Below the pieces are notes generated by a model. That model had not been told where the DNA came from. It saw nothing but the letters and a program-made list of their open reading frames with translations, and did no database searches. 64,000 nt of DNA from Vulcanimicrobiales bacterium (GTDB lineage: Bacteria; Vulcanimicrobiota; Vulcanimicrobiia; Vulcanimicrobiales; Vulcanimicrobiaceae): positions 140,928 through 204,927 of the forward strand of contig JBBRLI010000004.1 of assembly GCA_038231455.1 (NCBI GenBank). The letters run 5' to 3'. Made by a program: the position numbers and the translations under genes. Positions 32,615 to 48,320 of this stretch are shown one piece after another; position 1 is the first letter of the stretch; every line of letters starts with the position of its first letter.

Positions 32615-33549
32615 TAGCGCGCTCCGCTTATTCCGAAGTCGAGCCGGAGCGAGGTCGTGTGCGGATAGACATCGTCGACGGCTTTGGCGACCACCCGGTA
32701 CTTGCCGCGCGCGTGGCTGAGCTGCTGGAGGAGGGCCGTGAGCTGGGTCTGGTTGATGAGCGGCAGTTCCAAAAAGACCGCCGGGACACCGCGCACGGCC
32801 ATGACTTGCCGGGCCGCGGCAACCAAGTCCGCGTAGTTGAACGGCGTCCCGCCCGCGACATCGGTCGATGCGAGCACCTCGCCAGCGCGCGCGAGCCGCT
32901 TGTCGGCGTAGGCTTCGAACGAGAAACTCAGCTGGTCGCCGCGGAAGATATTGCGGTCGGCCACCGGCAAGAGCAGAACGGGATCCACGCGGTCATTATC
33001 GGCGACGTCCGCGAGTTGCTGAACGAGCAGCTTACGCACTTCGGGGTCGGTCGATTTCTTTTTGTTTGGAATGAGCGCGTACGGCGGCTTTGCAAAGCGG
33101 GCATTCGCCGCGCGAACCGTTTCATCGAAGAAGTCGGAGAACGTCTTGAGCTGCACGTCGACGGGTTGGTCTTTATTGAAGACGACGAAATTGACATAGA
33201 TCGGCGAAAACTTCGAGAGGACGATGCCCCGGTTGCGCGTCGTGTCGAGCTCGCGCTCTTGTGCGGCGGCTTGCGCCTGCAGCGCATGGATGCGCGCGTT
33301 GATCTCGCCCAGGCGAAAGAACGCCGTTCGAACGGATTCGGAGGCGATGAGGGCGGCGACCGTGACGGAGAGCGCGATGAGCATCCCCGTTCCGACGGCG
33401 ACGATCGTCGATGTGTACTTCGGCCGAAGTCCGAAGAGCGTCAGTCGACGGCGGCCGACTTGATGGCCGACGCGATCGCCGACGTAGGCAACGACGCCCG
33501 CGACGATCACGATAAAGAGCGCGATGAGGATACCGGGCAAAAATGTCAT
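32614..33549 (-). CDS. DUF3084 domain protein
   Basis: AYVGDRVGHQVGRRRLTLFGLRPKYT signature. Confidence 0.85.
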   Translation of the reverse strand: MTFLPGILIALFIVIVAGVVAYVGDRVGHQVGRRRLTLFGLRPKYTSTIVAVGTGMLIALSVTVAALIASESVRTAFFRLGEINARIHALQAQAAAQERELDTTRNRGIVLSKFSPIYVNFVVFNKDQPVDVQLKTFSDFFDETVRAANARFAKPPYALIPNKKKSTDPEVRKLLVQQLADVADNDRVDPVLLLPVADRNIFRGDQLSFSFEAYADKRLARAGEVLASTDVAGGTPFNYADLVAAARQVMAVRGVPAVFLELPLINQTQLTALLQQLSHARGKYRVVAKAVDDVYPHTTSLRLDFGISGAR

Positions 33550-34664
33550 GCGCCCGATGCCCGTCGCAGCAGCCAGAGGCCGATGCCGGTAAAGAGAACG
33601 TTCGGCGTCCAAGCCGCGATAAATGCCGCCGGACCGCCAAGCTCGCCAATCGACGCAAAGATGGTGACGATCACGTAGTACACAAAGACGATTGCGACGG
33701 CAAGGCCAAATCCCAGCGACGCCCCGCCGCCGCGAGTGGGCCGCAGGCCGAAGGGAACGGCGATGAGCGCAAAGACGAATGCGGCGAAGGGCCGGGCGGC
33801 TTTTGCTTCATAGGTGGCCCGAAACTGATTCTCTTGAAGCGGCGTGAGCTGACTTTGGTCGAGCTGCTGCTTGATCTGCGCACGGGACATCTCTTCGGGA
33901 TTCGAGAGCGTCGCCCGCTTCGCAATCTCGCTCGGCGGCTCGCCAATATCAACGCGCAATTTGGGATCGGTGCTCGTGGCCGAGAGCGAACCGTCCGGCG
34001 CAATATGGTAGATCGTCGCATCGACGAACGACCACGTCGGCGCAACGTAATTCGCTTTGTCGCTGAAGATGATCTCTGAGGGGCGCTGGTCGCGATCGTA
34101 TTGGATGATCGTCACGTGCTGCAAGGTTTGCGTGGTCGGATCGAGCGCGGCGGCGTTGGTCAGTTGACGACCGCCGCCGGGGAGCGGGATTGCGATATTG
34201 AGGTTGCTCGTAATCGGTGAGAGCTTCTTGATCACCGCTTCGCGCACATAAGCCGCCCGGTCGGTCGCAAGCGGCACGACTTGCTCTTGTAATACAAGCA
34301 CGATCACCGAGGTGAAGAACCCAACGACGAGCAGCGGGGTCACGATACGAATGAGGCTAATGCCACCCGCTTTCATCGCCGTGATCTCGCTCTCGCCCGA
34401 GAGACGTCCGAGCGAGAGTAAGACGCCAAGGAGCATCGCCATCGGAATGACGTAGAGCAAATACTGCGGCATGAGCAGCAAGAAGTATTGCATCGCCGCC
34501 CACAGCGGCGCGTGTTCGTCCGAGACAAGTTTGCCGAGCGCTATTAGATTGGTCGCGGTGAAGATCAGCGTAAACGCCGAAAACCCAAACGCGAACGGAC
34601 CGCCGAGTTCGCTAACCATATAGCGGTCCATAATCGTGATGCGCCGCTGCGCGCTTACCGCCAA
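33546..34664 (-). CDS. LptF/LptG family LPS export permease
   Basis: MDRYM, LGRLSGESEITAMKAGGIS, AAWTPN; start approximate. Confidence 0.92.
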   Translation of the reverse strand: MAVSAQRRITIMDRYMVSELGGPFAFGFSAFTLIFTATNLIALGKLVSDEHAPLWAAMQYFLLLMPQYLLYVIPMAMLLGVLLSLGRLSGESEITAMKAGGISLIRIVTPLLVVGFFTSVIVLVLQEQVVPLATDRAAYVREAVIKKLSPITSNLNIAIPLPGGGRQLTNAAALDPTTQTLQHVTIIQYDRDQRPSEIIFSDKANYVAPTWSFVDATIYHIAPDGSLSATSTDPKLRVDIGEPPSEIAKRATLSNPEEMSRAQIKQQLDQSQLTPLQENQFRATYEAKAARPFAAFVFALIAVPFGLRPTRGGGASLGFGLAVAIVFVYYVIVTIFASIGELGGPAAFIAAWTPNVLFTGIGLWLLRRASGA

Positions 34665-34686
34665 GGTGAGGCCTTGCGCGGAGCGA

Positions 34687-35430
34687 TCATAACCGGAAAC
34701 CTTCGCCAAGATAGAACTTGCGCGCGAGTTCGGAATTGAGCACGTCATCGGCGCTGCCGGAGACTTCGATCCGGCCGTTGTTGAGAATGTAGGCCCGATC
34801 GACGATCGCGAGCGTCTCGCGCACTTGGTGGTCGGTGATCAAGACGCCGAGGCCCTTATCGCGCAACTGCCGGATCATCGCCTGAATGTCGGCAACGGCA
34901 ATCGGATCGATGCCGGTAAACGGTTCGTCGAGCAAGAGAAACGCGGGTTCCGTCGCGATCGCGCGTGCAATTTCGACGCGGCGGCGCTCGCCGCCCGAGA
35001 GCGAATCGCCTCGCGCATCGATAAAGCGCGCGAGTCCGAATTCATCGAGCAATGCGGGCAACCGTTCTTCTTGCTCTTCACGCGAGACGCCGTTCATCTC
35101 CCAGATCAACCGGATGTTGTCGCCGACAGAGAGTTTGCGGAAGATCGAATTCTCTTGCGCGAGATACCCGATACCGGCCCGCGCACGCATGTGCATCGGC
35201 GCGCCGGTCAAATCGAAATCGCCGCCCGCACGTTCGAGCACGACGCGTCCGTCATCCGGCTTCACCAAGCCAACGACCATGTAGAACGTCGTCGTTTTCC
35301 CCGCGCCGTTGGGACCGAGCAAGCCGACGACTTCGCCGCGACGCACGTCCGCACTCACGCCGTCCACGACCGCGCGTTTGCCGTAGCTCTTCTTGAGCGA
35401 CGTGATGACGATGCGTTGCTCGTCGATCAT
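34687..35430 (-). CDS. lptB: LPS export ABC ATPase LptB
   Basis: GPNGAGKTTTFYM, LSGGERRRVEIAR, DEPFTGIDP, YLGEGF. Confidence 0.96.
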   Translation of the reverse strand: MIDEQRIVITSLKKSYGKRAVVDGVSADVRRGEVVGLLGPNGAGKTTTFYMVVGLVKPDDGRVVLERAGGDFDLTGAPMHMRARAGIGYLAQENSIFRKLSVGDNIRLIWEMNGVSREEQEERLPALLDEFGLARFIDARGDSLSGGERRRVEIARAIATEPAFLLLDEPFTGIDPIAVADIQAMIRQLRDKGLGVLITDHQVRETLAIVDRAYILNNGRIEVSGSADDVLNSELARKFYLGEGFRL

Positions 35431-35969
35431 CGCGCAATCGTCCGGATGTGCGCGTCTTCCAAGCGAACGTTCCCGTCGATCACGTCGCCCGTGATGCGAT
35501 CGCCGCCCGGACTCGTCACGACGACATGGCCCTCGCCGTGGAGGTGTTCGTTGTCGCTCGTGTAGCGGAGTCGGTCGCAGGTCATGAGGGCGCCCGCCTG
35601 CGTGCGCGTTACTACTCCACCAGTCATCACGAGGGTTTTACTGCTTTCATCCACGGTCGCCTTTGGCGCATCGGAGGTCATCGTGCGCCCGCTCGCGTCG
35701 TAAAACTCCACGTGCGGCTGCGTAAAGACACCGGTACTATGGCCCGCGCCGTCGCGCGCGCCCGTGTACGAGGGCGCCGTGAGGTAGTAGGCCTTGCGTT
35801 TCCCATGCATACCGGTGATCGTGGGCTGCTTGCCCTCGCCTCCCGCGGCACTGACGCGAATCGGTTCGACGGTCGGCGACCCAAGGGGTCTGGGACTTGT
35901 GCTCGGGGCTGGGGCATGGGGCCGAGCGCAGCCCGCAAGCAGCACGAGCACGACGAGCCTACGCCACAC
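35427..35969 (-). CDS. lptC: LptC/LptA-like beta-jellyroll lipoprotein
   Basis: LAGC lipobox, LHGEGHVVV beta pattern, overlaps lptB. Confidence 0.7.
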   Translation of the reverse strand: MWRRLVVLVLLAGCARPHAPAPSTSPRPLGSPTVEPIRVSAAGGEGKQPTITGMHGKRKAYYLTAPSYTGARDGAGHSTGVFTQPHVEFYDASGRTMTSDAPKATVDESSKTLVMTGGVVTRTQAGALMTCDRLRYTSDNEHLHGEGHVVVTSPGGDRITGDVIDGNVRLEDAHIRTIAR

Positions 35970-37170
35970 GTTCGGCGAGTCCAACGCGCAGCGCCGCGAT
36001 CGCAAGCGCCGAAAACAGAAACCAGATCATAAACGTTATACTCACCGAATTGAGCAGCGTGTGCAGCGTCGCCGCGCCGATTCCGCAGGTGATCCCGTAC
36101 GCAAGGATCCGGTTTGGCCTGGGCGCGCCGGCGCCGATCGCGCGATAGAGCCGCACGAAGGCAACGCCCCCGTACACGAGGGCCGCCACACCCAGAATCC
36201 CCGTTTCATCGAGGATCGAAAGCAACATGTTGTGCGGGTCGTACCCAACGGGCGTGGTCACCGGCGGCCCATCCGGCGGCCGAAAAACATCGTATGTCCG
36301 GTGGTAGGCAAGCGGCCCCATCCCGCTCAGTGGAAACCGCAGGAACGTCGTCGCGCCGGTCGCCCAGGCGGCCGTCCGTGCAAACGTATCTTGCGGGTTG
36401 TGGTGCCCAGCGCCGACGCCAAGTTCCAACGCAGCGGCAACGGCAGCGACGACGGCACCGCCGATGACGACGCGGCGACTCGCGAACCGTGCGAGGAAAA
36501 ACGCCGCTCCGATTCCGCCGGCGATCAATCCGCTTCTCGAGAACGTGAACGCAAGTGTCACCGCGCAGAGCAGCAGTGCCGTTCCCGCGAGGATCCGCAT
36601 CCCGCGCTCGCGCGTCGCGCCCAAGACACCCGCCGCGGTCCCGGCGATAACGAGTGTGCCCGCGGCGAGTTCGTTGGGATTGAGAAACGTTCCGACCGCG
36701 CGGCCATTGTTGACGACGGCAAGGGCGACGGGCCATTTGAGTGCCGCAAGAACGAGCGCGAGTGCGAACGCGACGATCGAGGTGGCGAAGAGCCAGCGAT
36801 AGATCGTCTGCGGCGCGCCGGCTTCGCCGTAATAGCGTTCGAGACCGTAATGCGAGATCGCATACGAGAGCAGCGCAAGCGAAAAGACGACGCCCGTGAT
36901 TGGCTCGAAGCCGAGCGCCCCGCCAAGGAGCGTCACGATAAAATTCGCGGCGACGGGCCAGAAGAGCGGTCCGAGCGGCTGAAGTCGGCGCGTAACGCCG
37001 ATGCCGACAACGACCGTGAGTGCGAGAATACTGATAAGGATCGCAAGCGTTGGCGCGTACGGGACGAGCGGCGCAACGGGCGGACGTGATTGGTCGAGCA
37101 CCGCGAACATCCCGTACGCCGGCATCGTGCAATACAAGAGCGCGAGCGCCAAGACGACAATCCGGTTCAC
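35959..37170 (-). CDS. O-antigen ligase family protein
   Basis: RAVGTFLNPNEL, TFSRSG, PLSGMG, PHNMLL...ETG. Confidence 0.85.
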   Translation of the reverse strand: MNRIVVLALALLYCTMPAYGMFAVLDQSRPPVAPLVPYAPTLAILISILALTVVVGIGVTRRLQPLGPLFWPVAANFIVTLLGGALGFEPITGVVFSLALLSYAISHYGLERYYGEAGAPQTIYRWLFATSIVAFALALVLAALKWPVALAVVNNGRAVGTFLNPNELAAGTLVIAGTAAGVLGATRERGMRILAGTALLLCAVTLAFTFSRSGLIAGGIGAAFFLARFASRRVVIGGAVVAAVAAALELGVGAGHHNPQDTFARTAAWATGATTFLRFPLSGMGPLAYHRTYDVFRPPDGPPVTTPVGYDPHNMLLSILDETGILGVAALVYGGVAFVRLYRAIGAGAPRPNRILAYGITCGIGAATLHTLLNSVSITFMIWFLFSALAIAALRVGLAERVA

Positions 37171-38303
37171 GCGGCGTGCTCCGCGATTCGCACGATCTCT
37201 TCGGCGATCCGCGCCGCGCCGCCGCTCCCACCCATGCGCTTGCGACCGATCGCGCCCATGCGCTCGCGACGCCCGGCATCATCGAGCAGGGCGACGATCG
37301 CGCGCGCGGCGCCATCGACATCACCGGGAACGATCGTCAGCGCCTCGCCGAGTAATTTTGCTTGCCGCATGCGATACCAACCGGCTGCGCGCGAGGTGCT
37401 CGGGGTTTCGAGCGCTACGACCGGGAGCCCGCAGCCCGCCGCCGCTTCGTTTGCCGTTCCGGCCTGACCGATTGCAACCGTTGCAGTTGCGAGCAGCGTC
37501 CCCAGTCCGTCGCGCACGCCCCGCAGCATCAGCGGTTCGGTTGCGCGAAAGGGCGTGGAGCTCGACTCCTCGCGCAAGCTCCAACCGTCTGCGCGCAAGG
37601 CCTCGATGAATCGCCCGGCGTCGAGACCCGGCGCAAGCGACATCGCTGCCTCCACGTCGGCATGTAATTCTCCAACACGGCGGGCGACCGCGGCCAGAAG
37701 TACCGCATCGCCGTAGGCGGGCTCGCGCGAGCCCGGCAAAAGCGCAAGACGCAGTGATTTTGTCCAAACGAGCGAGGCTGCATCATCGTGTAGCAGGTCG
37801 ACGATGACGTTGCCCGGTGCTCGTGCTTCTACGCCGTGCGCGCATAAATCGACCGCCGTCGCTTCGTCACGCACGAAGACGGCGCGCGCCCGACGCAGCA
37901 CCCGCCGTTCGAGCGAACCGTACGGAACGACGTGCACGCTCTTCGCCGTCCCGACGTAGACGATCGGCAACCCGGCAAACGTCGCGAGCAACAGCGCGTA
38001 CACATCACCAACGGCAACGACGCAATCGTACGCCGAGTGGGCAGCCCGCAAGAACGCGATCTGGCCGCCGAGCAACGACAAAAATCCGGCGCGCAAGTCG
38101 CGCGAAAAAGCGGCGAGATTGCCCATCGCTACCAGGCCGCCGCTGGGCATTGCGCGCTGCGGACCGACGTCGACGAACGACGCATCGCCAAAGCCCGCAC
38201 CGACAAGCGCGAGGTGGTGCGTCTGGGCGCGCGGGAGTTCGCGCGCGATTCGCGCCGCGATCGCCGCTTCACCGTGGCCGTTCGTCACGAAGAGGATGCG
38301 CAC
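37167..38303 (-). CDS. LpxB-related GT-B glycosyltransferase (lipid-A-disaccharide synthase-related)
   Basis: TNGHGE, MPSGG, VGD, LLPGSR, AGTANE motifs. Confidence 0.75.
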   Translation of the reverse strand: MRILFVTNGHGEAAIAARIARELPRAQTHHLALVGAGFGDASFVDVGPQRAMPSGGLVAMGNLAAFSRDLRAGFLSLLGGQIAFLRAAHSAYDCVVAVGDVYALLLATFAGLPIVYVGTAKSVHVVPYGSLERRVLRRARAVFVRDEATAVDLCAHGVEARAPGNVIVDLLHDDAASLVWTKSLRLALLPGSREPAYGDAVLLAAVARRVGELHADVEAAMSLAPGLDAGRFIEALRADGWSLREESSSTPFRATEPLMLRGVRDGLGTLLATATVAIGQAGTANEAAAGCGLPVVALETPSTSRAAGWYRMRQAKLLGEALTIVPGDVDGAARAIVALLDDAGRRERMGAIGRKRMGGSGGAARIAEEIVRIAEHAA

Positions 38304-39043
38304 TATGCGTGAACCGCATCGAGTAGCGGCACAAGATCGAAGCGCGTGATACGCGCACGCTCCGGGGTCAGCGTAAGCTCGGTGCGCGAGACAAATCGGC
38401 CGTACGGTCCCGCGTGCACGATCGGGACCTCACCGACATACTCCGGTTGCGGCAGCGTGTCATGACTGTGTCCGCCGAGAAGTAAATCGATGCGCGGGAC
38501 GCGGCGCGCGAGCTCGCGGTCGGCACGAAGTCCAAGATGCGAGAGCGCGACGAGCGTGACGTCCGCGGGCGTCGATGCAGCGATGTGTTCGGCGACGACG
38601 AACGGATCGAGAAACCGCCAACCGAAGATCTTCTCCCAAAAACTGCCGACCGGATATTGCGGCACCAGCAAGCCGAAAAAGCGCACGTCCCGCGAGCGGA
38701 TACCATCATCGTACCGCAGCGTCTTTTCGGCCACGAACGGCAGCGTGCGGCCTTTGGTATCGACGAGATTCGCACACAAGAGCGGATGCTGCATCAAACG
38801 AACGCGCGCTTCAACGGCACCAAAGAGGTAGTGGAATTCGCGATTTCCCATCGCTTGCAGATCGTAGCCCGCCGCATCGATCTCCGTGACGATGGGTTCG
38901 CGGCGGTGAAAGACGGTTTGCGAACCGCGCAGTGAGTCGCCGCAATCGACGAGTAGGCCGGGCTCTGCTGCTCGCAGGGCGTGCAACTTCGCTGCGATCT
39001 GGCCGTTGTCGTGCAGGTCGGAGGTATGATAGATCCGGATCAT
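38303..39043 (-). CDS. Calcineurin-like metallophosphoesterase, cytoplasmic
   Basis: TSDLH, DCGD, GNRE, SHLG, GGHSH; no signal peptide. Confidence 0.85.
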   Translation of the reverse strand: MIRIYHTSDLHDNGQIAAKLHALRAAEPGLLVDCGDSLRGSQTVFHRREPIVTEIDAAGYDLQAMGNREFHYLFGAVEARVRLMQHPLLCANLVDTKGRTLPFVAEKTLRYDDGIRSRDVRFFGLLVPQYPVGSFWEKIFGWRFLDPFVVAEHIAASTPADVTLVALSHLGLRADRELARRVPRIDLLLGGHSHDTLPQPEYVGEVPIVHAGPYGRFVSRTELTLTPERARITRFDLVPLLDAVHA

Positions 39044-40146
39044 GTCGCGGCGAGGCCCAATGCGTACACGGCGCAGCGGTCGAGCGTCGCGGGATCGCCG
39101 AGTTCGGCGCGTAGCGCGGCGAACTGCGCATGTTGCATGCTCGCATCCGCAAGCAATCGCTCGAGCGCAGATGCAAGTGCGGCGGACGTTGCCGCAGCTT
39201 GAATGAATTCCGGCACGACCTCGTCGTTCAGGATCAAATTTGGGATCGTGATAAAGCGGCCCGAATAGACGCGTAAGGCGATCTTGTATTGCGCATCTGA
39301 GAGCACGTAAAGCGCGATTGTCGGCACGTCAAGAAGCGCCGCTTCGAGCACCGCCGTCCCCGAGGCGATGGCGGCGACGTCGGCCGCGAGGAGCGCTGGC
39401 CGCGCACCGCGCACGATCCTTACGTCGAGATCGGTATACGCACGAAGCGCCGCACGCAGGGACTGCTCCGCATCGTCGTCGGCTGCTCCTAAGACGATCT
39501 TGAGGTCGGGACGCGTCTGGCGAAGTGCGCGCGCGGCGGCAAAGAGGGGTGCGGTGTGTCGGTCGATTTCGCTGCGACGACTACCGGGGAGGATTGCAAT
39601 CGTACCGCCACCCGAGGGTGCCGGCGCGCGCGGTTCGCGCGGCTCGATCGTCGCAACGAGCGGGTGTCCGAAGTGCGCGATCGGCAGGTCGAGCGACCGA
39701 TAGAAATCGCGCTGATGCGTAAAGGGCGTGAGCGGTGCGCAAAGCCGTGCGACTTGGCGCGCGCGCTTCGCATTATCCAGCCACGCCGCAGGCGGAAAAT
39801 AATACAGAATCCGGCCGCGGTATCCGATGCGCCGCAGCGTACTTGCGAGCCGTACGTTAAACGCGCCAAAGTCGATGAGCACGAGCAGATCGGGCGGATC
39901 GCGCTTCAGTTCGAACGCGGTGAGGAACATGATCGAGAGCAACTTGGGAATTTTTCCAAGCGCGTCGATCGGACCCATCGAGGCCCAGCCGCGCGTCGAC
40001 CAGCGCAGCGTAAATCCGGCAGCACGCATGCGCTCGTTGCCGATCCCCTCACACTGCAAGTCCGCGACATGCGCGCGCATTGCGCGAGCAAGGTCGACTG
40101 CCGCAAGTTCTCCGGACGCCTCGCCCGTCGAGAAAAAGACGCGCAT
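39040..40146 (-). CDS. lpxB: Lipid-A-disaccharide synthase
   Basis: GEASGE, IDFGAFN, FGHPL, LPGSR, SGTAVLE, VVPEFIQ. Confidence 0.92.
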   Translation of the reverse strand: MRVFFSTGEASGELAAVDLARAMRAHVADLQCEGIGNERMRAAGFTLRWSTRGWASMGPIDALGKIPKLLSIMFLTAFELKRDPPDLLVLIDFGAFNVRLASTLRRIGYRGRILYYFPPAAWLDNAKRARQVARLCAPLTPFTHQRDFYRSLDLPIAHFGHPLVATIEPREPRAPAPSGGGTIAILPGSRRSEIDRHTAPLFAAARALRQTRPDLKIVLGAADDDAEQSLRAALRAYTDLDVRIVRGARPALLAADVAAIASGTAVLEAALLDVPTIALYVLSDAQYKIALRVYSGRFITIPNLILNDEVVPEFIQAAATSAALASALERLLADASMQHAQFAALRAELGDPATLDRCAVYALGLAAT

Positions 40147-40154
40147 CGCGCGCG

Positions 40155-40922
40155 CTACTTCATGATCCCGCGGGGCGATTCGGCTTCGACGAAGGCGAGC
40201 ACCGCGCGACCCGCGTCGGTTTTCACTGTCTCTTTGAGCGCGATGACCGCTTGCGAGATGTTGCGGTCCGAACGATAGATCGTCTTGTACGCATCTTTGA
40301 GATCCGAGAGCACCTCGGCGGAAAACGCATGGCGCCGGAGGCCCGGCGAATTGAGTCCGTAGACTTCCGCCGGATTGCCTTCGGCAAGAAAATACGGCGG
40401 CAGATCGCGCACCATCTTCGTATAGCCGCCGACGAAACTGTATGCACCGACGCGTACGAACTGGTGGATTCCGGCCATGCCGCCGATACCCGCGTAGTCT
40501 TCGACCGTCACATGGCCGGCGAGCTGCGCGAGATTCGACATCGTGACGCCGTTTCCAACGCGGCAGTTGTGCGCGATGTGCACGTAGGCGAGCAGCAGAC
40601 AGTCGTTACCGATCGAGGTGACTTCGCCCTCACCCGTCGCGCGGTGGACGCTTGCGTATTCGCGTATGACGGTCCGGTCGCCGATCGTCGTATAGGCGAT
40701 CTCATCGCTTGCTTTGCGGTCTTGCGAACTCGCGCCGAGCGACGCGAACGGATGCACGATCGTCTCTTCGCCGATCGTCGTGTGACCGTTGACGACGACT
40801 TGCGCGAGCAATTTCGAACCCGCGCCGATCGAGACGTGTTCGCCCACGATACAAAACGGGCCGATCTCGGCGGTCGCAGCGATGTTGGCGTTCGGGTGAA
40901 CGATTGCAGTCGGGTGAATCAT
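40155..40922 (-). CDS. lpxA: UDP-GlcNAc acyltransferase
   Basis: MIHPTAIVH, hexapeptide repeats, HIAHNC, LAGHV, HQFVR. Confidence 0.95.
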   Translation of the reverse strand: MIHPTAIVHPNANIAATAEIGPFCIVGEHVSIGAGSKLLAQVVVNGHTTIGEETIVHPFASLGASSQDRKASDEIAYTTIGDRTVIREYASVHRATGEGEVTSIGNDCLLLAYVHIAHNCRVGNGVTMSNLAQLAGHVTVEDYAGIGGMAGIHQFVRVGAYSFVGGYTKMVRDLPPYFLAEGNPAEVYGLNSPGLRRHAFSAEVLSDLKDAYKTIYRSDRNISQAVIALKETVKTDAGRAVLAFVEAESPRGIMK

Positions 40923-41392
40923 AGGTGGAGGATCGTCGCGTCCAGGCGGAACGCGCGCGGATCGATCGAGACGGAGAACATTAATTCGCCCGAGACGGCA
41001 AGCTCGCCATCGACGCGCGCTTCGGCCTGAACCCACCCGATGTTCTTGCGCGTTTTGGTCACGGTCGTGGTCATCATGAAACAGTCTCCCGGCACGACCG
41101 GTCGTCGGAAACGCACTTTGTCGACGCCCACAAGGTACGTTACTTTGCGATGCATGTCGCCCGGGTTGAGCACGGCGCACCCGCCCAGTTGCGCCATCGC
41201 CTCGATCATGTACACGCCGGGCATCAGGGGATTGCCCGGAAAATGCCCCTGCACCCACGGCTCGTTCGCGCTGACGTTGCGGTAGCCGACGGCCCGAACG
41301 CCCGGAACGAGTTCCGTGATGCGGTCGATGAGCAACATGGGATAGCGGTGCGGCAAGATCGACATGATCTCGCGCACGTCGTGAATGGACAT
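40919..41392 (-). CDS. fabZ: 3-hydroxyacyl-ACP dehydratase
   Basis: LPHRYPMLLID, GHFPGNPLMPGV..IEAMAQ. Confidence 0.95.
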   Translation of the reverse strand: MSIHDVREIMSILPHRYPMLLIDRITELVPGVRAVGYRNVSANEPWVQGHFPGNPLMPGVYMIEAMAQLGGCAVLNPGDMHRKVTYLVGVDKVRFRRPVVPGDCFMMTTTVTKTRKNIGWVQAEARVDGELAVSGELMFSVSIDPRAFRLDATILHL

Positions 41393-41393
41393 G

Positions 41394-42245
41394 CTAAGGA
41401 ACGACGGCGGTAATCGGGCTGGCAGCGCTCCACGGTGCGAGCTCGCGCACCGCCGTGCAATGCAATTTGTGACCGCTCTTGATCGCAATGACCTCGCACT
41501 GAGGATAGGCGCCCAAAAGCGCAAAGTCGCCGATCAGATCGAGGATCTTGTGGCGCGCGGGTTCGTCGCGCATCCGCAGCGGTGCGAGCGGACCCTCGGG
41601 TCCGAACACCACGGCATTGTCGAGCGTGCCACCTTGCGCGAGCCCGCGGCGGATGAGTGCTTCGACTTCGTGCAAGAATCCGAAGGTTCGCGCGGGCGCA
41701 ACTTCGGCAGCGTAGTTTGCCGGGTCGATCTCGACATCGACGAACTGCGAACCGATCGGCGCGGGATAGTCGACGGTCATCCGCACGCGAAACGTTGAAC
41801 TTGGCGTGACGATGAGCGTCTTGTCGCCGTCACGGAAGACCAGGGGCTCGGTGACGATGAAGCGCTGACGCGGTTCGGTGAGCGTTGCGGTGCCGACGGC
41901 GAGAATCGCATCGGCGAAAACTTTTGCGCTGCCGTCCATCACGGGAATCTCCGGTCCGTCAACCGCGATGAGAGCGTTGTCGACGCCCATTCCCACCATT
42001 GCGGAGAGCAGGTGTTCGACGGTCGAGACGGTGTGCTCGCCGCTTCCGAGCACCGTCGCGCGGCGCGTGTCGACGACGTATTCGCCACGGGCCGGAAACG
42101 TGACCGCGTTATTGAGACGAAAGCTCAGGCCCGCCCCCGCGCGCGCGGGAAAAATGCGCACGCGAGCCGGCTGGCCCGTATGCAATCCGATTCCCGCAAA
42201 CTCAATTGAGTCGCGTAAGGTCGCTTGAAGCTGCACTCGTCTCAT
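41394..42245 (-). CDS. lpxC: UDP-3-O-acyl-GlcNAc deacetylase
   Basis: GIGLHTG, TVEHLLSA, HKILDLIGD. Confidence 0.96.
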   Translation of the reverse strand: MRRVQLQATLRDSIEFAGIGLHTGQPARVRIFPARAGAGLSFRLNNAVTFPARGEYVVDTRRATVLGSGEHTVSTVEHLLSAMVGMGVDNALIAVDGPEIPVMDGSAKVFADAILAVGTATLTEPRQRFIVTEPLVFRDGDKTLIVTPSSTFRVRMTVDYPAPIGSQFVDVEIDPANYAAEVAPARTFGFLHEVEALIRRGLAQGGTLDNAVVFGPEGPLAPLRMRDEPARHKILDLIGDFALLGAYPQCEVIAIKSGHKLHCTAVRELAPWSAASPITAVVP

Positions 42246-42303: not shown

Positions 42304-43332
42304 TCACGCTTTGCGAGCGCTCTCTAAGGCATCGACCCGAGCGAACAGCTTTGGAAGATTCTTAAGGAACACCTGCCCTCGTACTTCGTCGCGGTGGTTG
42401 CGCGCCGGGCGACCCGAAACGAACGCACCGTCCGCAAGATCGTTCCAAACCGCGGTGCCGCCGGCAACCGTTACGCGCGAGCCGATGGTAATGTGCCCGT
42501 TGAAGCCGCTCTGACCGCCGACGCGAACGTAGTCGCCAAGCGTCGTGGAACCGGAGATGCCGTTTTGCGCGGCAAGCGCCGAGTGTTTGCCGATCCGCAC
42601 GTTGTGGCCGATCTGGCAAAGATTATCGATCTTCGTGCCCTCGCCAATGCGGGTCACGCCGGTCTGCGCGCGGTCGACGGTGGTGTTCGCGCCGATCTCC
42701 ACATCATCGCCGAGTTCGACGATCCCGATCTGCGGAATCTTGCGCAGGCGTCCGTCCAAGAACGCCCATCCGAAGCCGTCCGATCCGATCACGGCGCCCG
42801 GCTGCAGTACGCAGCGCGCGCCGATCCGCGAACCATTCTCGATCACCACGCGCGCGTGCAAATAGGTCTGCTCGCCGATCGCAACGTCATCGCCGATCGC
42901 GCTGCCCGCGCCGAGGATGGCACCGGCACCAACGGTCGTACGCGCGCCAACGCTCACGTGCGGCCCGACGTAGACATCGGCACCCACACGCGCAGATGGA
43001 TCGACGGCGGCGGTGGGATGGACGAAGGGGCCTTGCGGACGCGGCGGCTCGAGTTCGGCCAAGAGGGCCGCAAGCGCGAGCCGCGTCGACTCGACGACGA
43101 CGAGGGGCTTCGTCGGCGCGTCGACTTCACGTGCAAGTGCGGCATCGGTTAGAACAGCCGACGCCTTGGAGGCAAGGGCCGCCTTGAGATATGTCGCGTC
43201 GGTTGCGAACGTCATCGATCCGGGACCGACGTCCTCAATCGCGCGCAGACCCTCGATGAGGATCGTTCCATCCCCGATCACGCGACCGCCGGTACGCTCG
43301 GCGATTGCGGCAAGCGTACCGAGTCCGCTCAC
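42304..43332 (-). CDS. lpxD: UDP-3-O-acylglucosamine N-acyltransferase
   Basis: IGSDGFG, KIPQIG, EIGANTTVDR, KIDNLCQIGHN. Confidence 0.96.
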   Translation of the reverse strand: MSGLGTLAAIAERTGGRVIGDGTILIEGLRAIEDVGPGSMTFATDATYLKAALASKASAVLTDAALAREVDAPTKPLVVVESTRLALAALLAELEPPRPQGPFVHPTAAVDPSARVGADVYVGPHVSVGARTTVGAGAILGAGSAIGDDVAIGEQTYLHARVVIENGSRIGARCVLQPGAVIGSDGFGWAFLDGRLRKIPQIGIVELGDDVEIGANTTVDRAQTGVTRIGEGTKIDNLCQIGHNVRIGKHSALAAQNGISGSTTLGDYVRVGGQSGFNGHITIGSRVTVAGGTAVWNDLADGAFVSGRPARNHRDEVRGQVFLKNLPKLFARVDALESARKA

Positions 43333-43733
43333 GGCGCGGGCGTCGCCTTTGCTTCATCGATCTTGAGGATTTTCTCGACATCCGCGGTGATGTCGACGCC
43401 GCCAAAGCCCGTCGCCTGACGTGTGAAAACCATCGTCAGATGCTTCTCGCTTGCGACCTGCTGCGAGGCGCTGGAAAGATCTTGAGCGATTTCGTTTTGA
43501 AACTGCACGTAGCGATCTTGCAGCTTCGCGCGCAGTTTCGCTTTGTCGGATGCCGATGCGTTCGACCGTTCGATCGTCGCGGCGTCAGCGTTGATTTGGT
43601 TCTGGTTGTTGATGTATTTCGGCCAATAGCCGGCAAGGCGCTGGACGTCGAGCGTTGCGATATCGCTTTTTGGCGCCGCGGTGCAAGCGGCAAGGGCGGT
43701 TGTGAGCAGTGCGGCGATGATGGTGCGTTTCAC
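43329..43733 (-). CDS. Short OmpH/Skp-like lipoprotein
   Basis: LAAC lipobox, IATLDVQRL, C-terminal GGVDITADV. Confidence 0.7.
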   Translation of the reverse strand: MKRTIIAALLTTALAACTAAPKSDIATLDVQRLAGYWPKYINNQNQINADAATIERSNASASDKAKLRAKLQDRYVQFQNEIAQDLSSASQQVASEKHLTMVFTRQATGFGGVDITADVEKILKIDEAKATPAP

Positions 43734-45058
43734 TCGTGAAGGCTTTCGATATCTTTCTGTGCATCGGCCGTGAGGTCCACACCGCTCGCCGAACCGGCGA
43801 TATTGTTGAGGACCACGGAGACCCCGCGGTTGTGCGCGACGACGCGCACTTCGCGATTGATCTGATCGATGATCTGGCCGTAAAGATCATCGCGTTTTTT
43901 CTGCAACGAGGCAATTTGTTTGCGCGCGCCATCTTGGGCTCGGGCGTCGATCCCGTGCAACGCTTCGAAACGCCGCGTAAGATCGGATTTGGTGCGGTTG
44001 AAATCATCGATCGTGGACTTTGCGTCGGCTTCGAATTTCTTCTGATAGTCGGCATGCAGCGCCGTGATCTTCGCCCGCAAATTCGGTGGAAGGTTGGGAT
44101 TTGGGCCGGCGAGGGTTTGCGTCTGCGCGATCACGGGACCGGCTGGCGCCGAGAACTGCGCGCGCAGCGTCGACTCTCGCGTTTTGAGCTTGCCGATCGA
44201 ACGCGTCTGGATGTCGAGTGCGGCCTTTCGCGCGTCTCGCGCGACGCTATCGCGCAGCTGCGTTTGCAGCGCTGCGAGCGTCGCCTGGTCTTTATTGCGC
44301 ATCGCCCCGACGGCGTCGGATTCGCGGCGTTCGATCGCTGCGAGTTGCGCTTTTGATTCTTCGCGGGCCGCATCGTCGAGCGCGAGGTTCGAGAGGCGCG
44401 TCTTCACCCCTAAGCGTTCGCCCGCGTCTTTATTCGCAAGATCGAGGGAGAGCTGCGCTTCTTTTCCCTGCAGTTCGTCGCGCTTTGCATTGTACGTGCG
44501 TTCCGCACGGGCTTGCAGCGCGCGCGTCGCCGCCTCGATCGCCGAGCGGTCTTGTCCTTCGAGAGCGGCACGGTACGTGTTGAAATCCGTTTGCGCGGCT
44601 TTCGCGGCGCCCGCATATTGTTTGCTTGCGGTTTCGTTGATCTGGCTTGCGATTTGCCCGGTCGAGGTGCCCGGTCGCGAGCCACCGGCCAGCGCTGCGG
44701 AGATTGCTACATTTTCGCGTTTCGCGTACTCGTCTTGTTTTTGATGCAGAATCTTCTCGGTACGCACGCGCGCAGCATCGAGTTCGACTTGCAGCTGCTT
44801 CTCGCCGCGTGCGAGTTCCGGTCCCGACGCCGCCGCAGCCGGTATCGTGGCCGTCAGATTGAGTGCGTCGATCGAGGCATCGTACTCGGCAAGCTGGCCG
44901 AAGAGCGGATGCCGTTTTACGAGCTCTTCCATCCGGACATAGCCAACCGGACCACCCGAAGTGGCCGGGCCTGCGGTGCTCGCGGGAGCCGACGTCGACG
45001 CCGGCTTCGCGCACGCAGCGAGTGCGCAGAACGCGATCGCCGCAAGAACGCGACGCAA
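43730..45058 (-). CDS. Long coiled-coil OmpH/Skp-like lipoprotein
   Basis: LAAC lipobox, VGYVRMEELVKRHP, C-terminal GVDLTAD. Confidence 0.65.
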   Translation of the reverse strand: MRRVLAAIAFCALAACAKPASTSAPASTAGPATSGGPVGYVRMEELVKRHPLFGQLAEYDASIDALNLTATIPAAAASGPELARGEKQLQVELDAARVRTEKILHQKQDEYAKRENVAISAALAGGSRPGTSTGQIASQINETASKQYAGAAKAAQTDFNTYRAALEGQDRSAIEAATRALQARAERTYNAKRDELQGKEAQLSLDLANKDAGERLGVKTRLSNLALDDAAREESKAQLAAIERRESDAVGAMRNKDQATLAALQTQLRDSVARDARKAALDIQTRSIGKLKTRESTLRAQFSAPAGPVIAQTQTLAGPNPNLPPNLRAKITALHADYQKKFEADAKSTIDDFNRTKSDLTRRFEALHGIDARAQDGARKQIASLQKKRDDLYGQIIDQINREVRVVAHNRGVSVVLNNIAGSASGVDLTADAQKDIESLHE

Positions 45059-45059
45059 G

Positions 45060-45872
45060 CTACTTCAGAGCGCTCGTGACGTCCGCGGTGATATCCGTAC
45101 CGCCGAAGACGATGTTGCGCTTATCGACGACGAGGATGAGATTCTTTTTCTTTGCAACACCGGCAATCGCATCGCGCGTCTTGTCAACGAGCGGCTTGAG
45201 CGTCGACTCTTGCTTATCGTTGATCGTTTTTTGGTACGCCTTAACGATCTCGTTGCGGTCCTTGTCAGTCTTCGCCGACTTGAGCTTCTCTTTCGTCGCG
45301 GCAAGCTGATCTTGACCGAATTTCAGCACGTCGGATTGCGCGGTTTTCACACTCGGTAACGCGTCAATCTGCGTTTGATCGACGAAGCCGACGTTCGATG
45401 GCGGCGGTGTGTTAACCGGCGGGACGGGGTCGCCGACACCGCCGAGCAGATCGGCGACGTTCTTCGTAATGTCTGTGCCGCCGTACACGACGATCTGGTG
45501 ATCGACGACAACCGAGAGATTCTTGCTCGAGGCGACCGAGGCGATCGCGACTTGCGCCTTGCCGAAAAGCGGGCCGAGGAGTTGCCGCTGTTTGTCGGCG
45601 ATTTTCTGCTGGAATTCGCCCTGCAGCTTTTGTTGATCGGCCTGCGAGCGCGCGGATTTCGCGCGGTTTTGGAACTGCTTCGCAAGCCGATTCTGATAGT
45701 CGTTGAGCTGGCGATTTGCCGCCTGGAAGGCGGGCAATTGCGCGAGCTGATCTTGCGAAACATACCCGATGTCGACGACATCCGCGGCGAGAACCGCAGG
45801 CGCGGCAAGGAACGCGACGAGCGCGAGGGCCACCGCCGCCGAGCGGCGGAGGCGGTGCGAGAACGAATTCAT
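45060..45872 (-). CDS. Tandem double-domain OmpH/Skp chaperone
   Basis: Two repeats IGYV...YGGTDITKNV and VGFVD...FGGTDITADV. Confidence 0.82.
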   Translation of the reverse strand: MNSFSHRLRRSAAVALALVAFLAAPAVLAADVVDIGYVSQDQLAQLPAFQAANRQLNDYQNRLAKQFQNRAKSARSQADQQKLQGEFQQKIADKQRQLLGPLFGKAQVAIASVASSKNLSVVVDHQIVVYGGTDITKNVADLLGGVGDPVPPVNTPPPSNVGFVDQTQIDALPSVKTAQSDVLKFGQDQLAATKEKLKSAKTDKDRNEIVKAYQKTINDKQESTLKPLVDKTRDAIAGVAKKKNLILVVDKRNIVFGGTDITADVTSALK

Positions 45873-45873
45873 T

Positions 45874-48129: not shown

Positions 48130-48320
48130 AGGCAACTTTCCTTTAGAGTACCAAGCCGACGACAGCGAGCGGCTACCGGGGGAACGTGCGAACACCGGCG
48201 GGTGTTCCGTGTCGGCCCCTGCGGGGGCACCCAAAGCGCGAACGCATCGGCGGGCGCGCTCATCCCAGCTTGCAAGTTTTTGGGTGGCGGAGGTCAGGCC
48301 CTCCCCGACGTCCGCTGACC

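What the first reader, a model, noticed from the sequence alone, without database searches (positions are those of the whole stretch)
38303..39043. Candidate non-canonical UDP-diacylglucosamine hydrolase (LpxH/LpxI/LpxG substitute)
Seen: lpxD-lpxC-fabZ-lpxA-lpxB are contiguous with no lpxI or lpxH. The gene overlapping the lpxB stop encodes a signal-less metallophosphoesterase resembling only the N-terminal domain of 5'-nucleotidase/UDP-sugar hydrolase, with GNRE instead of the usual GNHE. Established: LpxB needs lipid X, and LpxH is a calcineurin-like phosphoesterase with a GNRD motif whose Arg contacts the substrate phosphate. Inference: this may be a distinct enzyme for the missing step.
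Basis: partly seen in the sequence, partly recalled or inferred. Interest (0 to 1): 0.72.

Follow-up and report, generated by a model that had tools for sequence, protein, structure and literature searches.

The report
Candidate missing lipid A pyrophosphatase
A small cytoplasmic metal-dependent phosphoesterase wedged into the lipid A operon of an uncultured soil bacterium is the best candidate for the enzyme that makes lipid X in a whole phylum where none of the three known enzymes for that step can be found.

Summary
Window 38303-39043 (-) encodes a 246-aa metallophosphoesterase (MPE) whose ATG overlaps the lpxB stop (ATGA) and whose stop overlaps the start of an LpxB paralogue, TIGR03492. 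It has no signal peptide and no TM segment. It is homologous only to the N-terminal catalytic domain of 5'-nucleotidase/UshA, and reads GNRE where those enzymes read GNHE.

The genome is an Eremiobacterota MAG, 93.7% complete. It has lpxA, C, D and B, but I found no LpxH, LpxI, LpxG, Cdh, LpxK or WaaA. In 121 genomes sampled across its phylum:
- LpxH was found in 0, LpxI in 0, and LpxG above cut-off in 0.
- LpxB was found in 120.
- A profile of this family matched all 121, strongly except in G065.

The MPE lies in the lpx cluster wherever both genes share a contig. Arg replaces the MPE catalytic His in 72 of 76 stand-alone representatives. A published LpxH structure calls that substitution unique to LpxH, where the Arg holds the lipid X phosphate.

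Best reading (about 0.58): a further, independently recruited UDP-2,3-diacylglucosamine pyrophosphatase. Nothing is shown biochemically. The tightest linkage is with TIGR03492, a sister clade labelled Armatimonadota is not lpxB-linked, and cyanobacteria could not be tested.

The parts
38303..39043 (-). Candidate UDP-2,3-diacylglucosamine pyrophosphatase: a stand-alone, cytoplasmic, UshA-N-domain-like metallophosphoesterase of 246 aa
   Evidence: ORF. Pfam and NCBIfam matches. A family profile hits 5'-nucleotidase/CD73/UshA N-domains in the PDB at E about 2e-36. AF2 model has pLDDT 96.3. Top Foldseek hit is UshA 1oie, E 8e-18.
38837..38848 (-). GNRE motif (G66 N67 R68 E69). Arg stands in place of the catalytic His of GNHE.
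   Evidence: Translation. R68 is invariant in A5 (27 of 27) and at least 90% conserved in A1. It aligns with GNHEF of CD73.
39011..39019 (-). DxH metal-binding motif (D9, H11), at the very N-terminus
   Evidence: both residues are invariant.
38933..38944 (-). GD motif (G35 D36), bridging metal ligand
   Evidence: invariant.
38462..38476 (-). GGHSH motif (H192, H194), metal ligands
   Evidence: invariant.
39040..40146 (-). lpxB, lipid A disaccharide synthase. Its stop overlaps the MPE start.
   Evidence: PF02684 at 224.5 bits; TIGR00215 at 200.7 bits, above its cut-off of 190.25. Junction read.
37167..38303 (-). TIGR03492 'lipid-A-disaccharide synthase-related protein', an LpxB paralogue that keeps LpxB's catalytic and UDP-binding residues. 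Its start overlaps the MPE stop.
   Evidence: TIGR03492 at 228.2 bits, above its cut-off of 219.2. Invariant E12, D100, P190-G-S-R193, T283 and E286, compared with the LpxB residues listed in PMC5785501 Table 3.
40155..41258 (-). lpxA. The ORF as listed is over-extended at its 5' end; the domains start near residue 105.
   Evidence: Hexapep and Acetyltransf_11.
40919..41524 (-). fabZ. The ORF as listed; the FabA domain spans residues 57-178.
   Evidence: PF07977 at 103.8 bits.
41394..42245 (-). lpxC
   Evidence: PF03331 at 301.7 bits.
42304..43332 (-). lpxD
   Evidence: LpxD and Hexapep domains.
35959..37170 (-). Wzy_C (O-antigen ligase-like) membrane protein, next in the operon
   Evidence: PF04932 at 57.6 bits.
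33546..36005 (-). lptC (35427-36005), lptB (34687-35430) and lptF/G (33546-34748): LPS export genes that continue the operon
   Evidence: PF06835, PF00005 and PF03739.

Best explanation
The gene most likely encodes the enzyme that cleaves UDP-2,3-diacylglucosamine into UMP and lipid X. That is the acceptor LpxB needs, and this lineage has none of the three known enzymes for the step (LpxH, LpxI, LpxG).

Proposed mechanism (inferred):
- The protein is the bare dimetal catalytic domain of a UshA-type UDP-sugar pyrophosphatase, kept in the cytoplasm.
- D9, H11, D36, N67, H169, H192 and H194 hold two metal ions, which activate water to attack the pyrophosphate.
- R68 takes the place of the usual catalytic His and clamps the sugar-1-phosphate (beta-phosphate) of the substrate, as Arg80 does in LpxH. 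This would be a convergent solution on a different branch of the metallophosphoesterase superfamily.

The gene is translated in one unit with lpxB upstream and the LpxB paralogue TIGR03492 downstream.

Shown here: the gene, its motifs, its fold family, the lack of any match to LpxH/I/G in the genomes searched, and the conserved linkage. Inferred: the substrate, the reaction and the role of R68.
For: 1. Need. The window's genome has lpxA, C, D and B. It gave no match to TIGR01854 (LpxH), PF06230 or PF17930 (LpxI) at E <= 10 or 1. It gave none to PF02611 (Cdh), and none to NF033458 (LpxG) at E <= 0.001.

   Its 8 other Metallophos ORFs are YfcE-like, CpdA/SpdA-like, SbcD, PdeM and TIGR00282 types, plus one unassigned. 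The best LpxG score among them is 16.6 bits against a cut-off of 350. Their motif III reads GNH/GNT/GNN, not GNR.

2. Phylum-wide pattern in 121 genomes of 21 families.
   - LpxH matched 0 of 121 and LpxI_C 0 of 121. LpxG was above cut-off in 0 of 121.
   - LpxB matched 120 of 121.
   - The family profile A2 matched 121 of 121 at E <= 1e-10.
   - In genus g51 the member is split into two matches by an insertion, about 212 bits in sum.
   - G065, the one genome without LpxB, has only a 100-bit relative, and its TIGR03492 is cut by a contig end.

3. Linkage.
   - lpxB lies immediately upstream in 89 of 89 loci of the window's class. Some of those loci are the same place fetched twice.
   - In the other classes both places were listed for 60 genomes. 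They lie on one contig at most 4.2 kb apart in 48, on different contigs in 12, and never far apart on one contig (my tally).
   - Five clusters read in full all contain lpxC...lpxA-lpxB...MPE-TIGR03492.
   - In G003 the MPE stays beside lpxB while TIGR03492 is on another contig.

4. Chemistry. The family profile hits UshA, CD73 and 5'-nucleotidase N-domains at E about 1e-34 to 2e-36, and the top Foldseek hit is UshA. NCBIfam names UshA a 'bifunctional UDP-sugar hydrolase/5'-nucleotidase'. From recalled knowledge, it cleaves UDP-sugars to UMP and sugar-1-phosphate, the same bond.

5. The Arg.
   - GNRE is found in 72 of 76 stand-alone representatives.
   - GNH[ED] is found in 41 of 45 long forms.
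   - In a metagenome scan, 12 of 24 GNRE loci and 0 of 56 non-GNRE loci had lpxA-D or TIGR03492 hits in their flanks.
   - PMC5016852 states that His-to-Arg at this position occurs 'only in LpxH' among MPEs and that the Arg binds the lipid X phosphate.

6. Location. There is no signal peptide or TM segment, which fits the cytoplasmic face where lipid A is built.

7. Lipid A is probably made. A cultured member of the phylum has a Gram-negative envelope and 3-hydroxy fatty acids (PMC9758169, passages).
Against: - No activity has been measured; all evidence is comparative.
- The most constant neighbour is TIGR03492, not lpxB. In other classes one to three genes separate lpxB from the MPE, while MPE-TIGR03492 stays contiguous. 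The one clean fusion is MPE-TIGR03492 (P0146). The LpxB-MPE 'fusions' are singletons with partial domains and are probably frameshift artefacts.
- A sister stand-alone GNRE clade also carries the Arg but is not next to lpx genes in the contigs examined (L142, L143, L145, L147, L149). It makes up 49 of the 107 tree rows, and NCBI labels its members Armatimonadota. So the Arg is a family trait, not proof of the lipid substrate.
- Synechococcus elongatus, a control genome, shows the same gap: LpxB and TIGR03492 ring; LpxH, LpxI, LpxG, LpxK and WaaA do not. I could not test whether it has this family. If it does not, another unknown enzyme fills the gap there and might do so here too.
- In the other classes, 59 of 69 genomes also have about 300-aa MPEs that hit the LpxG model at 40-84 bits per match, far below the cut-off of 350. 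Controls without LPS ring at the same threshold. In the window's own class only 3 of 51 genomes (G000 left out) have any such hit.
- The genome is 93.67% complete, so a missing gene cannot be excluded from it alone.
Confidence: 0.58

Rival explanations
1. The MPE works with the LpxB paralogue TIGR03492 rather than for LpxB. It would hydrolyse some other nucleotide-linked or phosphorylated intermediate of a TIGR03492-catalysed glycosylation, for example the step that replaces Kdo transfer in a lineage without WaaA.
For: - MPE-TIGR03492 is contiguous in every cluster read. In the window the stop and start overlap.
- P0146 is a full MPE fused to a full TIGR03492, which scores 305 bits.
- TIGR03492 keeps LpxB's catalytic residues, so it is probably an active UDP-sugar transferase.
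- TIGR03492 is above cut-off in Deinococcus radiodurans, a control in which LpxB does not ring.
Against: - It leaves the lipid X step without any enzyme.
- Glycosyltransferases do not normally need a phosphoesterase partner.
- In G003 the MPE stays with lpxB while TIGR03492 is elsewhere.
- The Armatimonadota-type clade shows no TIGR03492 within 9 kb in the contigs read.
- This rival is not exclusive of the main reading. TIGR03492 could be the substrate-binding partner for the same reaction.
Confidence: 0.15
2. The MPE is a lipid A phosphatase, for example removing the 1-phosphate from the disaccharide-1-phosphate on the cytoplasmic side. This would give the phosphate-poor lipid A reported for organisms with the four-enzyme pathway.
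For: - 5'-nucleotidase relatives are phosphomonoesterases as well as pyrophosphatases (family names).
- LpxK was found in only 1 of 121 genomes, and marginally, so the 4'-phosphate is probably absent.
- Opiyo et al. 2010 describe cyanobacterial LPS as lacking phosphate (PMC3087551, passages).
Against: - It does not supply lipid X.
- lpx clusters of other classes carry an ICMT-family gene whose best NCBIfam match is LmtA, the lipid A 1-phosphate methyltransferase (45-56 bits, far below its cut-off of 325). This hints that the 1-phosphate is kept there.
- Replacing the catalytic His by Arg is known from a pyrophosphatase (LpxH), not from phosphomonoesterases of this fold.
Confidence: 0.1
3. The MPE is a housekeeping cytoplasmic nucleotidase or UDP-sugar hydrolase that merely rides in the operon.
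For: Source annotations call relatives 5'-nucleotidase, 2',3'-cyclic-nucleotide phosphodiesterase or UDP-sugar diphosphatase.
Against: - It lacks the C-terminal nucleotide-binding domain: no PF02872 match in a protein of 246 aa.
- It lacks the catalytic His.
- Its place in the lpx cluster is kept across 21 families of a phylum, and its reading frame overlaps both neighbours.
Confidence: 0.05

Closest known systems
LpxH (UDP-2,3-diacylglucosamine diphosphatase; TIGR01854)
   Same: Both belong to the calcineurin-like metallophosphoesterase superfamily, are about 240 aa and are cytoplasmic. Both have Arg in place of the motif III catalytic His (for LpxH; here). The proposed reaction is the same.
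   Different: No sequence match was found: TIGR01854 gave no match anywhere in the genome at E <= 10, and the family profile hit no LpxH structure in the PDB at E <= 0.01. The nearest relatives are UshA-type enzymes instead. An LpxH-like lipid-binding cap was not shown.
LpxG of Chlamydia (NF033458)
   Same: Both are calcineurin-like phosphoesterases recruited for this step in a lineage without LpxH or LpxI (PMC4807358, abstract and passages).
   Different: LpxG keeps GNHD and has an N-terminal TM helix. This protein has GNRE and no TM segment. It gave no NF033458 match at E <= 0.01.
UshA / 5'-nucleotidase / CD73 family
   Same: The N-terminal dimetal catalytic domain is clearly homologous (E about 2e-36; Foldseek E 8e-18 and TM 0.76-0.80 over the query). 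UshA cleaves the same UDP-sugar pyrophosphate bond (recalled).
   Different: - The substrate-binding C-terminal domain (PF02872) is missing.
- There is no signal peptide.
- His117 is replaced by Arg, and the position three residues on reads H71 here (the UshA residue there, Asp120, is recalled).
- The gene sits in a lipid A operon.
LpxI (PF06230, PF17930)
   Same: The gene lies beside lpxB in the lpx cluster, as lpxI typically does between lpxA and lpxB (recalled). The proposed step is the same.
   Different: The fold is unrelated. Neither LpxI model gave a match in the genome.

Membership tests
LpxH (TIGR01854) | Match to the family HMM at or above its cut-off (190.35 bits) | tested here: not met
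   No match in the whole genome at E <= 10. The candidate gave no LpxH hit in NCBIfam at E <= 0.01. No LpxH chain is among the PDB hits of the family profile.
LpxH (TIGR01854) | Arg in place of the catalytic His of MPE motif III | tested here: met
   GNRE at residues 66-69. R68 is invariant in 27 of 27 lpx-linked sequences. The LpxH feature is described in PMC5016852.
LpxH (TIGR01854) | Inserted cap/lid that buries the acyl chains | not testable with these tools
   Only summary data of the AF2 model were returned; no coordinates were available to inspect.
LpxG (NF033458) | Match to the family HMM (cut-off 350 bits), GNHD motif, N-terminal TM helix | tested here: not met
   No hit at E <= 0.01. 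The motif is GNRE, not GNHD. The highest 19-residue hydropathy mean is 1.26. LpxG features are from PMC4807358.
LpxI (PF06230, PF17930) | LpxI_N and LpxI_C domains | tested here: not met
   No match in the genome. The candidate hits only Metallophos models in Pfam.
Calcineurin-like metallophosphoesterase superfamily (PF00149) | DxH ... GD ... GNx[ED] ... H ... GHxH metal-binding motifs and the fold | tested here: met
   PF00149 at 26.2 bits, above its cut-off of 21.5. D9, H11, D36, N67, H169, H192 and H194 are invariant in 51 sequences. The AF2 model has pLDDT 96.3.
5'-nucleotidase / UshA family | N-terminal catalytic domain homologous to UshA/CD73 | tested here: met
   E 2.1e-36 to CD73 and 1e-34 to UshA. 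Foldseek top hits are UshA, YunD and CD73.
5'-nucleotidase / UshA family | C-terminal substrate-binding domain (PF02872) | tested here: not met
   The protein is 246 aa with no PF02872 match. Relatives of 236-275 aa dominate the family.
5'-nucleotidase / UshA family | Catalytic His in GNHE | tested here: not met
   Arg at that position. GNH[ED] is found in 41 of 45 long representatives against GNRE in 72 of 76 short ones.
UDP-2,3-diacylglucosamine hydrolase (functional class) | Converts UDP-2,3-diacyl-GlcN to lipid X, or complements an lpxH mutant | not testable with these tools
   This needs a bench assay.

The most novel reading that the evidence does not exclude
The stand-alone GNRE phosphoesterase and the LpxB paralogue TIGR03492 together form a two-part UDP-2,3-diacylglucosamine hydrolase. 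The LpxB-like protein still has a UDP-lipid binding site, and would replace the substrate-binding C-terminal domain that 5'-nucleotidases use to deliver substrate to the dimetal site.

This pair, rather than LpxH/I/G, would be the ancestral way of making lipid X in the LpxK- and Kdo-free 'four-enzyme' lipid A pathway of Terrabacteria, cyanobacteria included.
Probability: 0.12. Interest if true: 0.85.

Novelty: new variant of a known kind. Interest (0 to 1): 0.62.

Why it matters
**The gap.** Lipid X formation is an essential step of lipid A synthesis and a current antibiotic target through LpxH. Three enzymes are known for it. Organisms with the short 'four-enzyme' pathway (lpxA, C, D, B only) were described in 2010 for cyanobacteria and Dictyoglomi, and have no known enzyme for this step.

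**What this adds.** The finding gives a specific, cloneable candidate for a whole phylum with that pathway. It also gives a mechanistic clue that is easy to test: the same His-to-Arg change as in LpxH, arising on a different branch of the metallophosphoesterase fold.

**If confirmed.**
- It would be another independent invention of this step.
- It would improve pathway prediction for diderm Terrabacteria. These proteins are annotated as 5'-nucleotidases or cyclic-nucleotide phosphodiesterases in the databases searched.
- It would draw attention to the uncharacterised LpxB paralogue TIGR03492, which also occurs in cyanobacteria and Deinococcus.

Tried and rejected
**Complex prediction.** Complex prediction on TIGR03492 plus the MPE, each with its own 27-row alignment, scored 0.00 in both runs. 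The verdict was 'no answer' and the controls were not run. It is not used as evidence either way. MPE with LpxB was not tried, because the cap is one job.

**Fusions as Rosetta-stone evidence.**
- A search for longer forms found 10 proteins at E <= 1e-20, all singletons.
- The LpxB-MPE forms (P0271, P0274, P0226, P0166) carry only partial domains. Given the ATGA overlap, they are most simply frameshift or read-through artefacts, so I rejected them as evidence.
- Only P0146 (MPE plus TIGR03492), which came, looks clean.

**Reaching other phyla.**
- The search for related loci on genome contigs returned only Eremiobacterota-like loci among its best 80 of 332, and the cap is one scan.
- The genome search 'relatives' with n = 150 stayed inside the phylum.
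- Metagenome loci are not accepted as handles.
- So the key cross-phylum census could not be made. It would cover cyanobacteria, Dictyoglomota and Armatimonadota, and ask whether the family is present and whether LpxH/I/G are absent.

**Closed or failed tools.**
- The first 51-sequence alignment had no stretch conserved enough for the search for related loci; a smaller alignment worked.

**Other MPEs in the genome.** L091 and L092 are 242 aa, about LpxH size. I considered them as hidden LpxH and rejected them: they are YfcE/ApaH-like, motif III reads GNHD or GNTD, and TIGR01854 gives no hit.

**G065 as a natural 'no LpxB, no MPE' case.** Rejected, because its TIGR03492 is cut by a contig end, so its lpx region is probably unassembled.

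**Literature.** Searches for a described fourth class or for TIGR03492 found nothing relevant. The library does not hold most subscription-journal papers.

**Tree.** The careful tree did not finish in time. Only the quick tree with SH-aLRT support is reported.
Full report
**What is there**

On the minus strand the window carries one long envelope operon:

| Gene | Window coordinates |
|---|---|
| bamA | 45874-48234 |
| three OmpH/Skp-like ORFs | 43329-45968 |
| lpxD | 42304-43332 |
| lpxC | 41394-42245 |
| fabZ | 40919-41524 (ORF as listed) |
| lpxA | 40155-41258 (ORF as listed) |
| lpxB | 39040-40146 |
| the finding, a 246-aa metallophosphoesterase (MPE) | 38303-39043 |
| TIGR03492 'lipid-A-disaccharide synthase-related protein' | 37167-38303 |
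| Wzy_C-type protein | 35959-37170 |
| lptC, lptB, lptF/G | 33546-36005 |

The MPE start overlaps the lpxB stop (ATGA). Its stop, TAG, shares a base with the GTG start of TIGR03492. The three genes therefore look translationally coupled.

The MPE begins directly with the DxH motif (residues 9-11) and has no hydrophobic segment: the highest 19-residue hydropathy mean is 1.26. No signal-peptide program was run.

**What family it is**

- Pfam sees only a weak Metallophos match (26.2 bits).
- NCBIfam gives partial matches to the N-terminal parts of SoxB, UshA-like and CpdB-type models, and nothing for LpxH, LpxG or LpxI.
- A profile of 51 relatives hits the N-terminal domains of CD73, 5'-nucleotidases and E. 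coli UshA in the PDB at E 2e-36 to 1e-34. It hits no LpxH entry.
- An AlphaFold2 model is confident (pLDDT 96.3). Its best Foldseek matches are UshA, B. subtilis YunD, CD73 and SoxB.

So the protein is the catalytic half of a UshA-type enzyme without the C-terminal substrate-binding domain.

All metal ligands are invariant (D9, H11, D36, N67, H169, H192, H194). The catalytic His of GNHE is Arg (GNRE, 38837-38848).

**Is the hydrolase step really vacant?**

The window lies in a MAG of 3.71 Mb in 106 contigs, 93.67% complete. The titles of the closest related records name Eremiobacterota/Vulcanimicrobiota.

In this genome I found no match to:
- LpxH, LpxI_C or LpxI_N;
- LpxG or Cdh;
- WaaA.

LpxK gave only noise, 14.9 bits. 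The eight other Metallophos ORFs are of unrelated types.

Across 121 genomes drawn from 21 families of the phylum:

| Family searched | Genomes with a match |
|---|---|
| LpxH (TIGR01854) | 0 of 121 |
| LpxI_C (PF06230) | 0 of 121 |
| LpxG (NF033458), above cut-off | 0 of 121 |
| LpxK (PF02606) | 1 of 121, marginal |
| LpxB (PF02684) | 120 of 121 |

Weak, generic hits to the LpxG model occur in 62 of 121 genomes, almost all outside the window's class. Control genomes without LPS ring at the same threshold.

The controls behaved as expected. LpxH rang in E. coli and Bacteroides, and LpxI in Caulobacter. Synechococcus elongatus shows the same pattern as this phylum: LpxB and TIGR03492 ring, while LpxH, LpxI, LpxG, LpxK and WaaA do not.

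Opiyo et al. 2010 described this 'four-enzyme' gene set, in the same lpxD-lpxC-fabZ-lpxA-lpxB order, for cyanobacteria and Dictyoglomi (PMC3087551, passages read).

**Distribution and linkage of the MPE**

- The 90%-identity database holds 1741 relatives at E <= 0.001 in the length range searched. The 120 listed are 236-261 aa and 69-100% identical.
- The 50%-identity library gives 5839 hits at E <= 0.001, of which 42 are at E <= 1e-30.
- The family is present in 40 of 41 close relatives. That count includes three genomes flagged unpublished (G020, G022, G036), and nothing rests on them alone.
- A profile of the family matches 121 of 121 genomes of the phylum sample at E <= 1e-10.
- In genus g51 the match is split by an insertion.
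- G065, the only genome without LpxB, has just a 100-bit relative. Its lpx region seems unassembled.

In the window's class, lpxB is immediately upstream in 89 of 89 loci, and TIGR03492 is downstream in 87 of 89. The two exceptions are one genome fetched twice, and some other loci may also be duplicates.

In the other classes both places were listed for 60 genomes. They lie on one contig at most 4.2 kb apart in 48 and on different contigs in 12. For seven g51 genomes the MPE place was not listed (my tally).

Five clusters read gene by gene show this order:
- lpxC, fabZ, a GnnA-like dehydrogenase (in some with a DegT aminotransferase), lpxA and lpxB;
- then a variable stretch with an extra LpxB-like gene, an LmtA-like methyltransferase and a small ORF;
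- then MPE-TIGR03492.

In G003 the MPE stays beside lpxB while TIGR03492 lies on another contig.

**The Arg**

- Among the 150 best representatives, 76 are stand-alone (225-290 aa), and 72 of these read GNRE.
- Of 45 long forms (430 aa or more), 41 read GNH[ED] and 3 read GNRE. I did not check which three; the list includes fused forms.
- In a metagenome scan of 80 loci, 24 carry GNRE, and 12 of those have lpxA-D or TIGR03492 in their flanks. Of the 56 others, 0 do.
- The P. aeruginosa LpxH structure paper states that the catalytic His of metallophosphoesterases is replaced by Arg 'only in LpxH'. It also states that Arg80 makes a bidentate salt bridge to the lipid X phosphate, which is the beta-phosphate of the substrate (PMC5016852, passages).

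The same replacement on a UshA-type scaffold, in a lipid A operon, is the strongest mechanistic hint.

**What complicates the picture**

1. *TIGR03492 is the most constant neighbour.* The only clean fusion is MPE-TIGR03492 (P0146). The LpxB-MPE fusions are singletons with partial domains. TIGR03492 keeps the residues listed for the LpxB active site (E15, D98, P198-R201, T277, E281 in PMC5785501 Table 3). Its invariant counterparts are E12, D100, P190-R193, T283 and E286. It is therefore probably an active UDP-sugar transferase. It also occurs in Deinococcus radiodurans, where LpxB does not ring.

2. *There are two stand-alone GNRE groups.* This comes from a quick tree of 107 rows with SH-aLRT support only, because the careful search did not finish.
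   - One side of a branch (support 85) holds all 12 lpx-linked sequences.
   - A clade of 49 rows (support 100) holds all five sequences whose contigs show no lpx gene nearby.
   - Where NCBI names an organism for that second clade, it says Armatimonadota in 9 of 11 cases and 'bacterium' in 2.
   - The second clade was not found in 121 plus 151 genomes of the window's phylum.
   - Its contexts are partly LPS-related. L142 has KdsD-like, KdsC-like, MPE, an ArnT-like PMT_2 gene and a GT2 gene. L143 has MPE and PMT_2, with lptB and lptF/G 5 kb away.

3. *Other phyla could not be tested.* I could not test whether cyanobacteria or Armatimonadota genomes have the family or lack LpxH/I/G, because no tool gave me genomes outside the phylum.

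**Reading**

LpxB needs lipid X. No known enzyme to make it was found in 120 LpxB-positive genomes. The only hydrolase in the conserved cluster is a cytoplasmic UshA-type pyrophosphatase core with LpxH's signature Arg.

I put about 0.58 on a UDP-2,3-diacylglucosamine pyrophosphatase, possibly acting with TIGR03492. The rivals:

| Rival | Confidence |
|---|---|
| Accessory enzyme of a TIGR03492 step | 0.15 |
| Lipid A phosphatase | 0.10 |
| Unrelated nucleotidase | 0.05 |

The weakly LmtA-like genes in sister clusters hint that the 1-phosphate is kept, which goes against the phosphatase rival.

I found no paper describing such an enzyme or TIGR03492. Papers from 2026 still list only LpxH, LpxI and LpxG (PMC13018214, passages). 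Supplements were not consulted.

**Novelty**

LpxH and LpxG are already metallophosphoesterases. This would therefore be a new variant of a known kind: a further independent recruitment of the fold, from the UshA branch. It would not be a new kind of enzyme.

Noticed in passing
window 37167-38303 (-): TIGR03492, an uncharacterised LpxB paralogue, keeps the equivalents of LpxB's catalytic base and UDP-binding residues. It follows the MPE in every cluster read and is fused to it in P0146. It is above cut-off in the Synechococcus elongatus and Deinococcus radiodurans controls. It could be the first core glycosyltransferase in lineages without WaaA. No paper on it was found.
   Followed up: partly
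L136:4306-6834 (-) and L139:3122-5545 (+); also G073, G100 and other genomes of family f6: In one family of the phylum, LpxB lies in an 807-857 aa frame. The LpxB domain fills the first ~355-395 residues, and a C-terminal extension of about 450 aa has no Pfam match.
   Followed up: no
L221, L222, L223, L224 (clusters of other classes of the phylum): These lpx clusters carry a GnnA-like UDP-GlcNAc 3-dehydrogenase and an ICMT-family methyltransferase that weakly resembles LmtA (lipid A 1-phosphate methyltransferase). L222 also has a DegT-type aminotransferase. This suggests a GlcN3N-based lipid A with a modified 1-phosphate and no 4'-phosphate.
   Followed up: no
L142:6681-12385 and L143:9001-15935: A second clade of stand-alone GNRE phosphoesterases, labelled Armatimonadota by NCBI, sits with other envelope genes instead of lpxB. 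In L142 these are KdsD-like (SIS+CBS), KdsC-like (HAD), PMT_2 (ArnT-like) and GT2 genes. In L143 they are PMT_2, lptB and lptF/G.
   Followed up: partly
L147:8217-9750: An ORF holding only the 5'-nucleotidase C-terminal domain lies directly upstream of a stand-alone GNRE phosphoesterase. The two halves of a 5'-nucleotidase are present as separate genes, in reversed order.
   Followed up: no
window 29235-31958 (-): A 907-aa protein has one N-terminal SLH domain and a long C-terminal part without Pfam hits. From recall, it resembles the OmpM-type outer-membrane tethers of diderm Terrabacteria.
   Followed up: no
window 43329-45968 (-): Three consecutive OmpH/Skp-like ORFs (302, 442 and 134 aa) lie between bamA and lpxD. 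The 302-aa one has two OmpH matches.
   Followed up: no
G053:C34:16709-17491 and similar places in 59 of 69 genomes of the other classes: MPEs of about 300 aa match both halves of the LpxG model at 40-84 bits per match, far below the cut-off of 350. They are not in the lpx cluster. They were not examined as possible distant LpxG-like enzymes.
   Followed up: no
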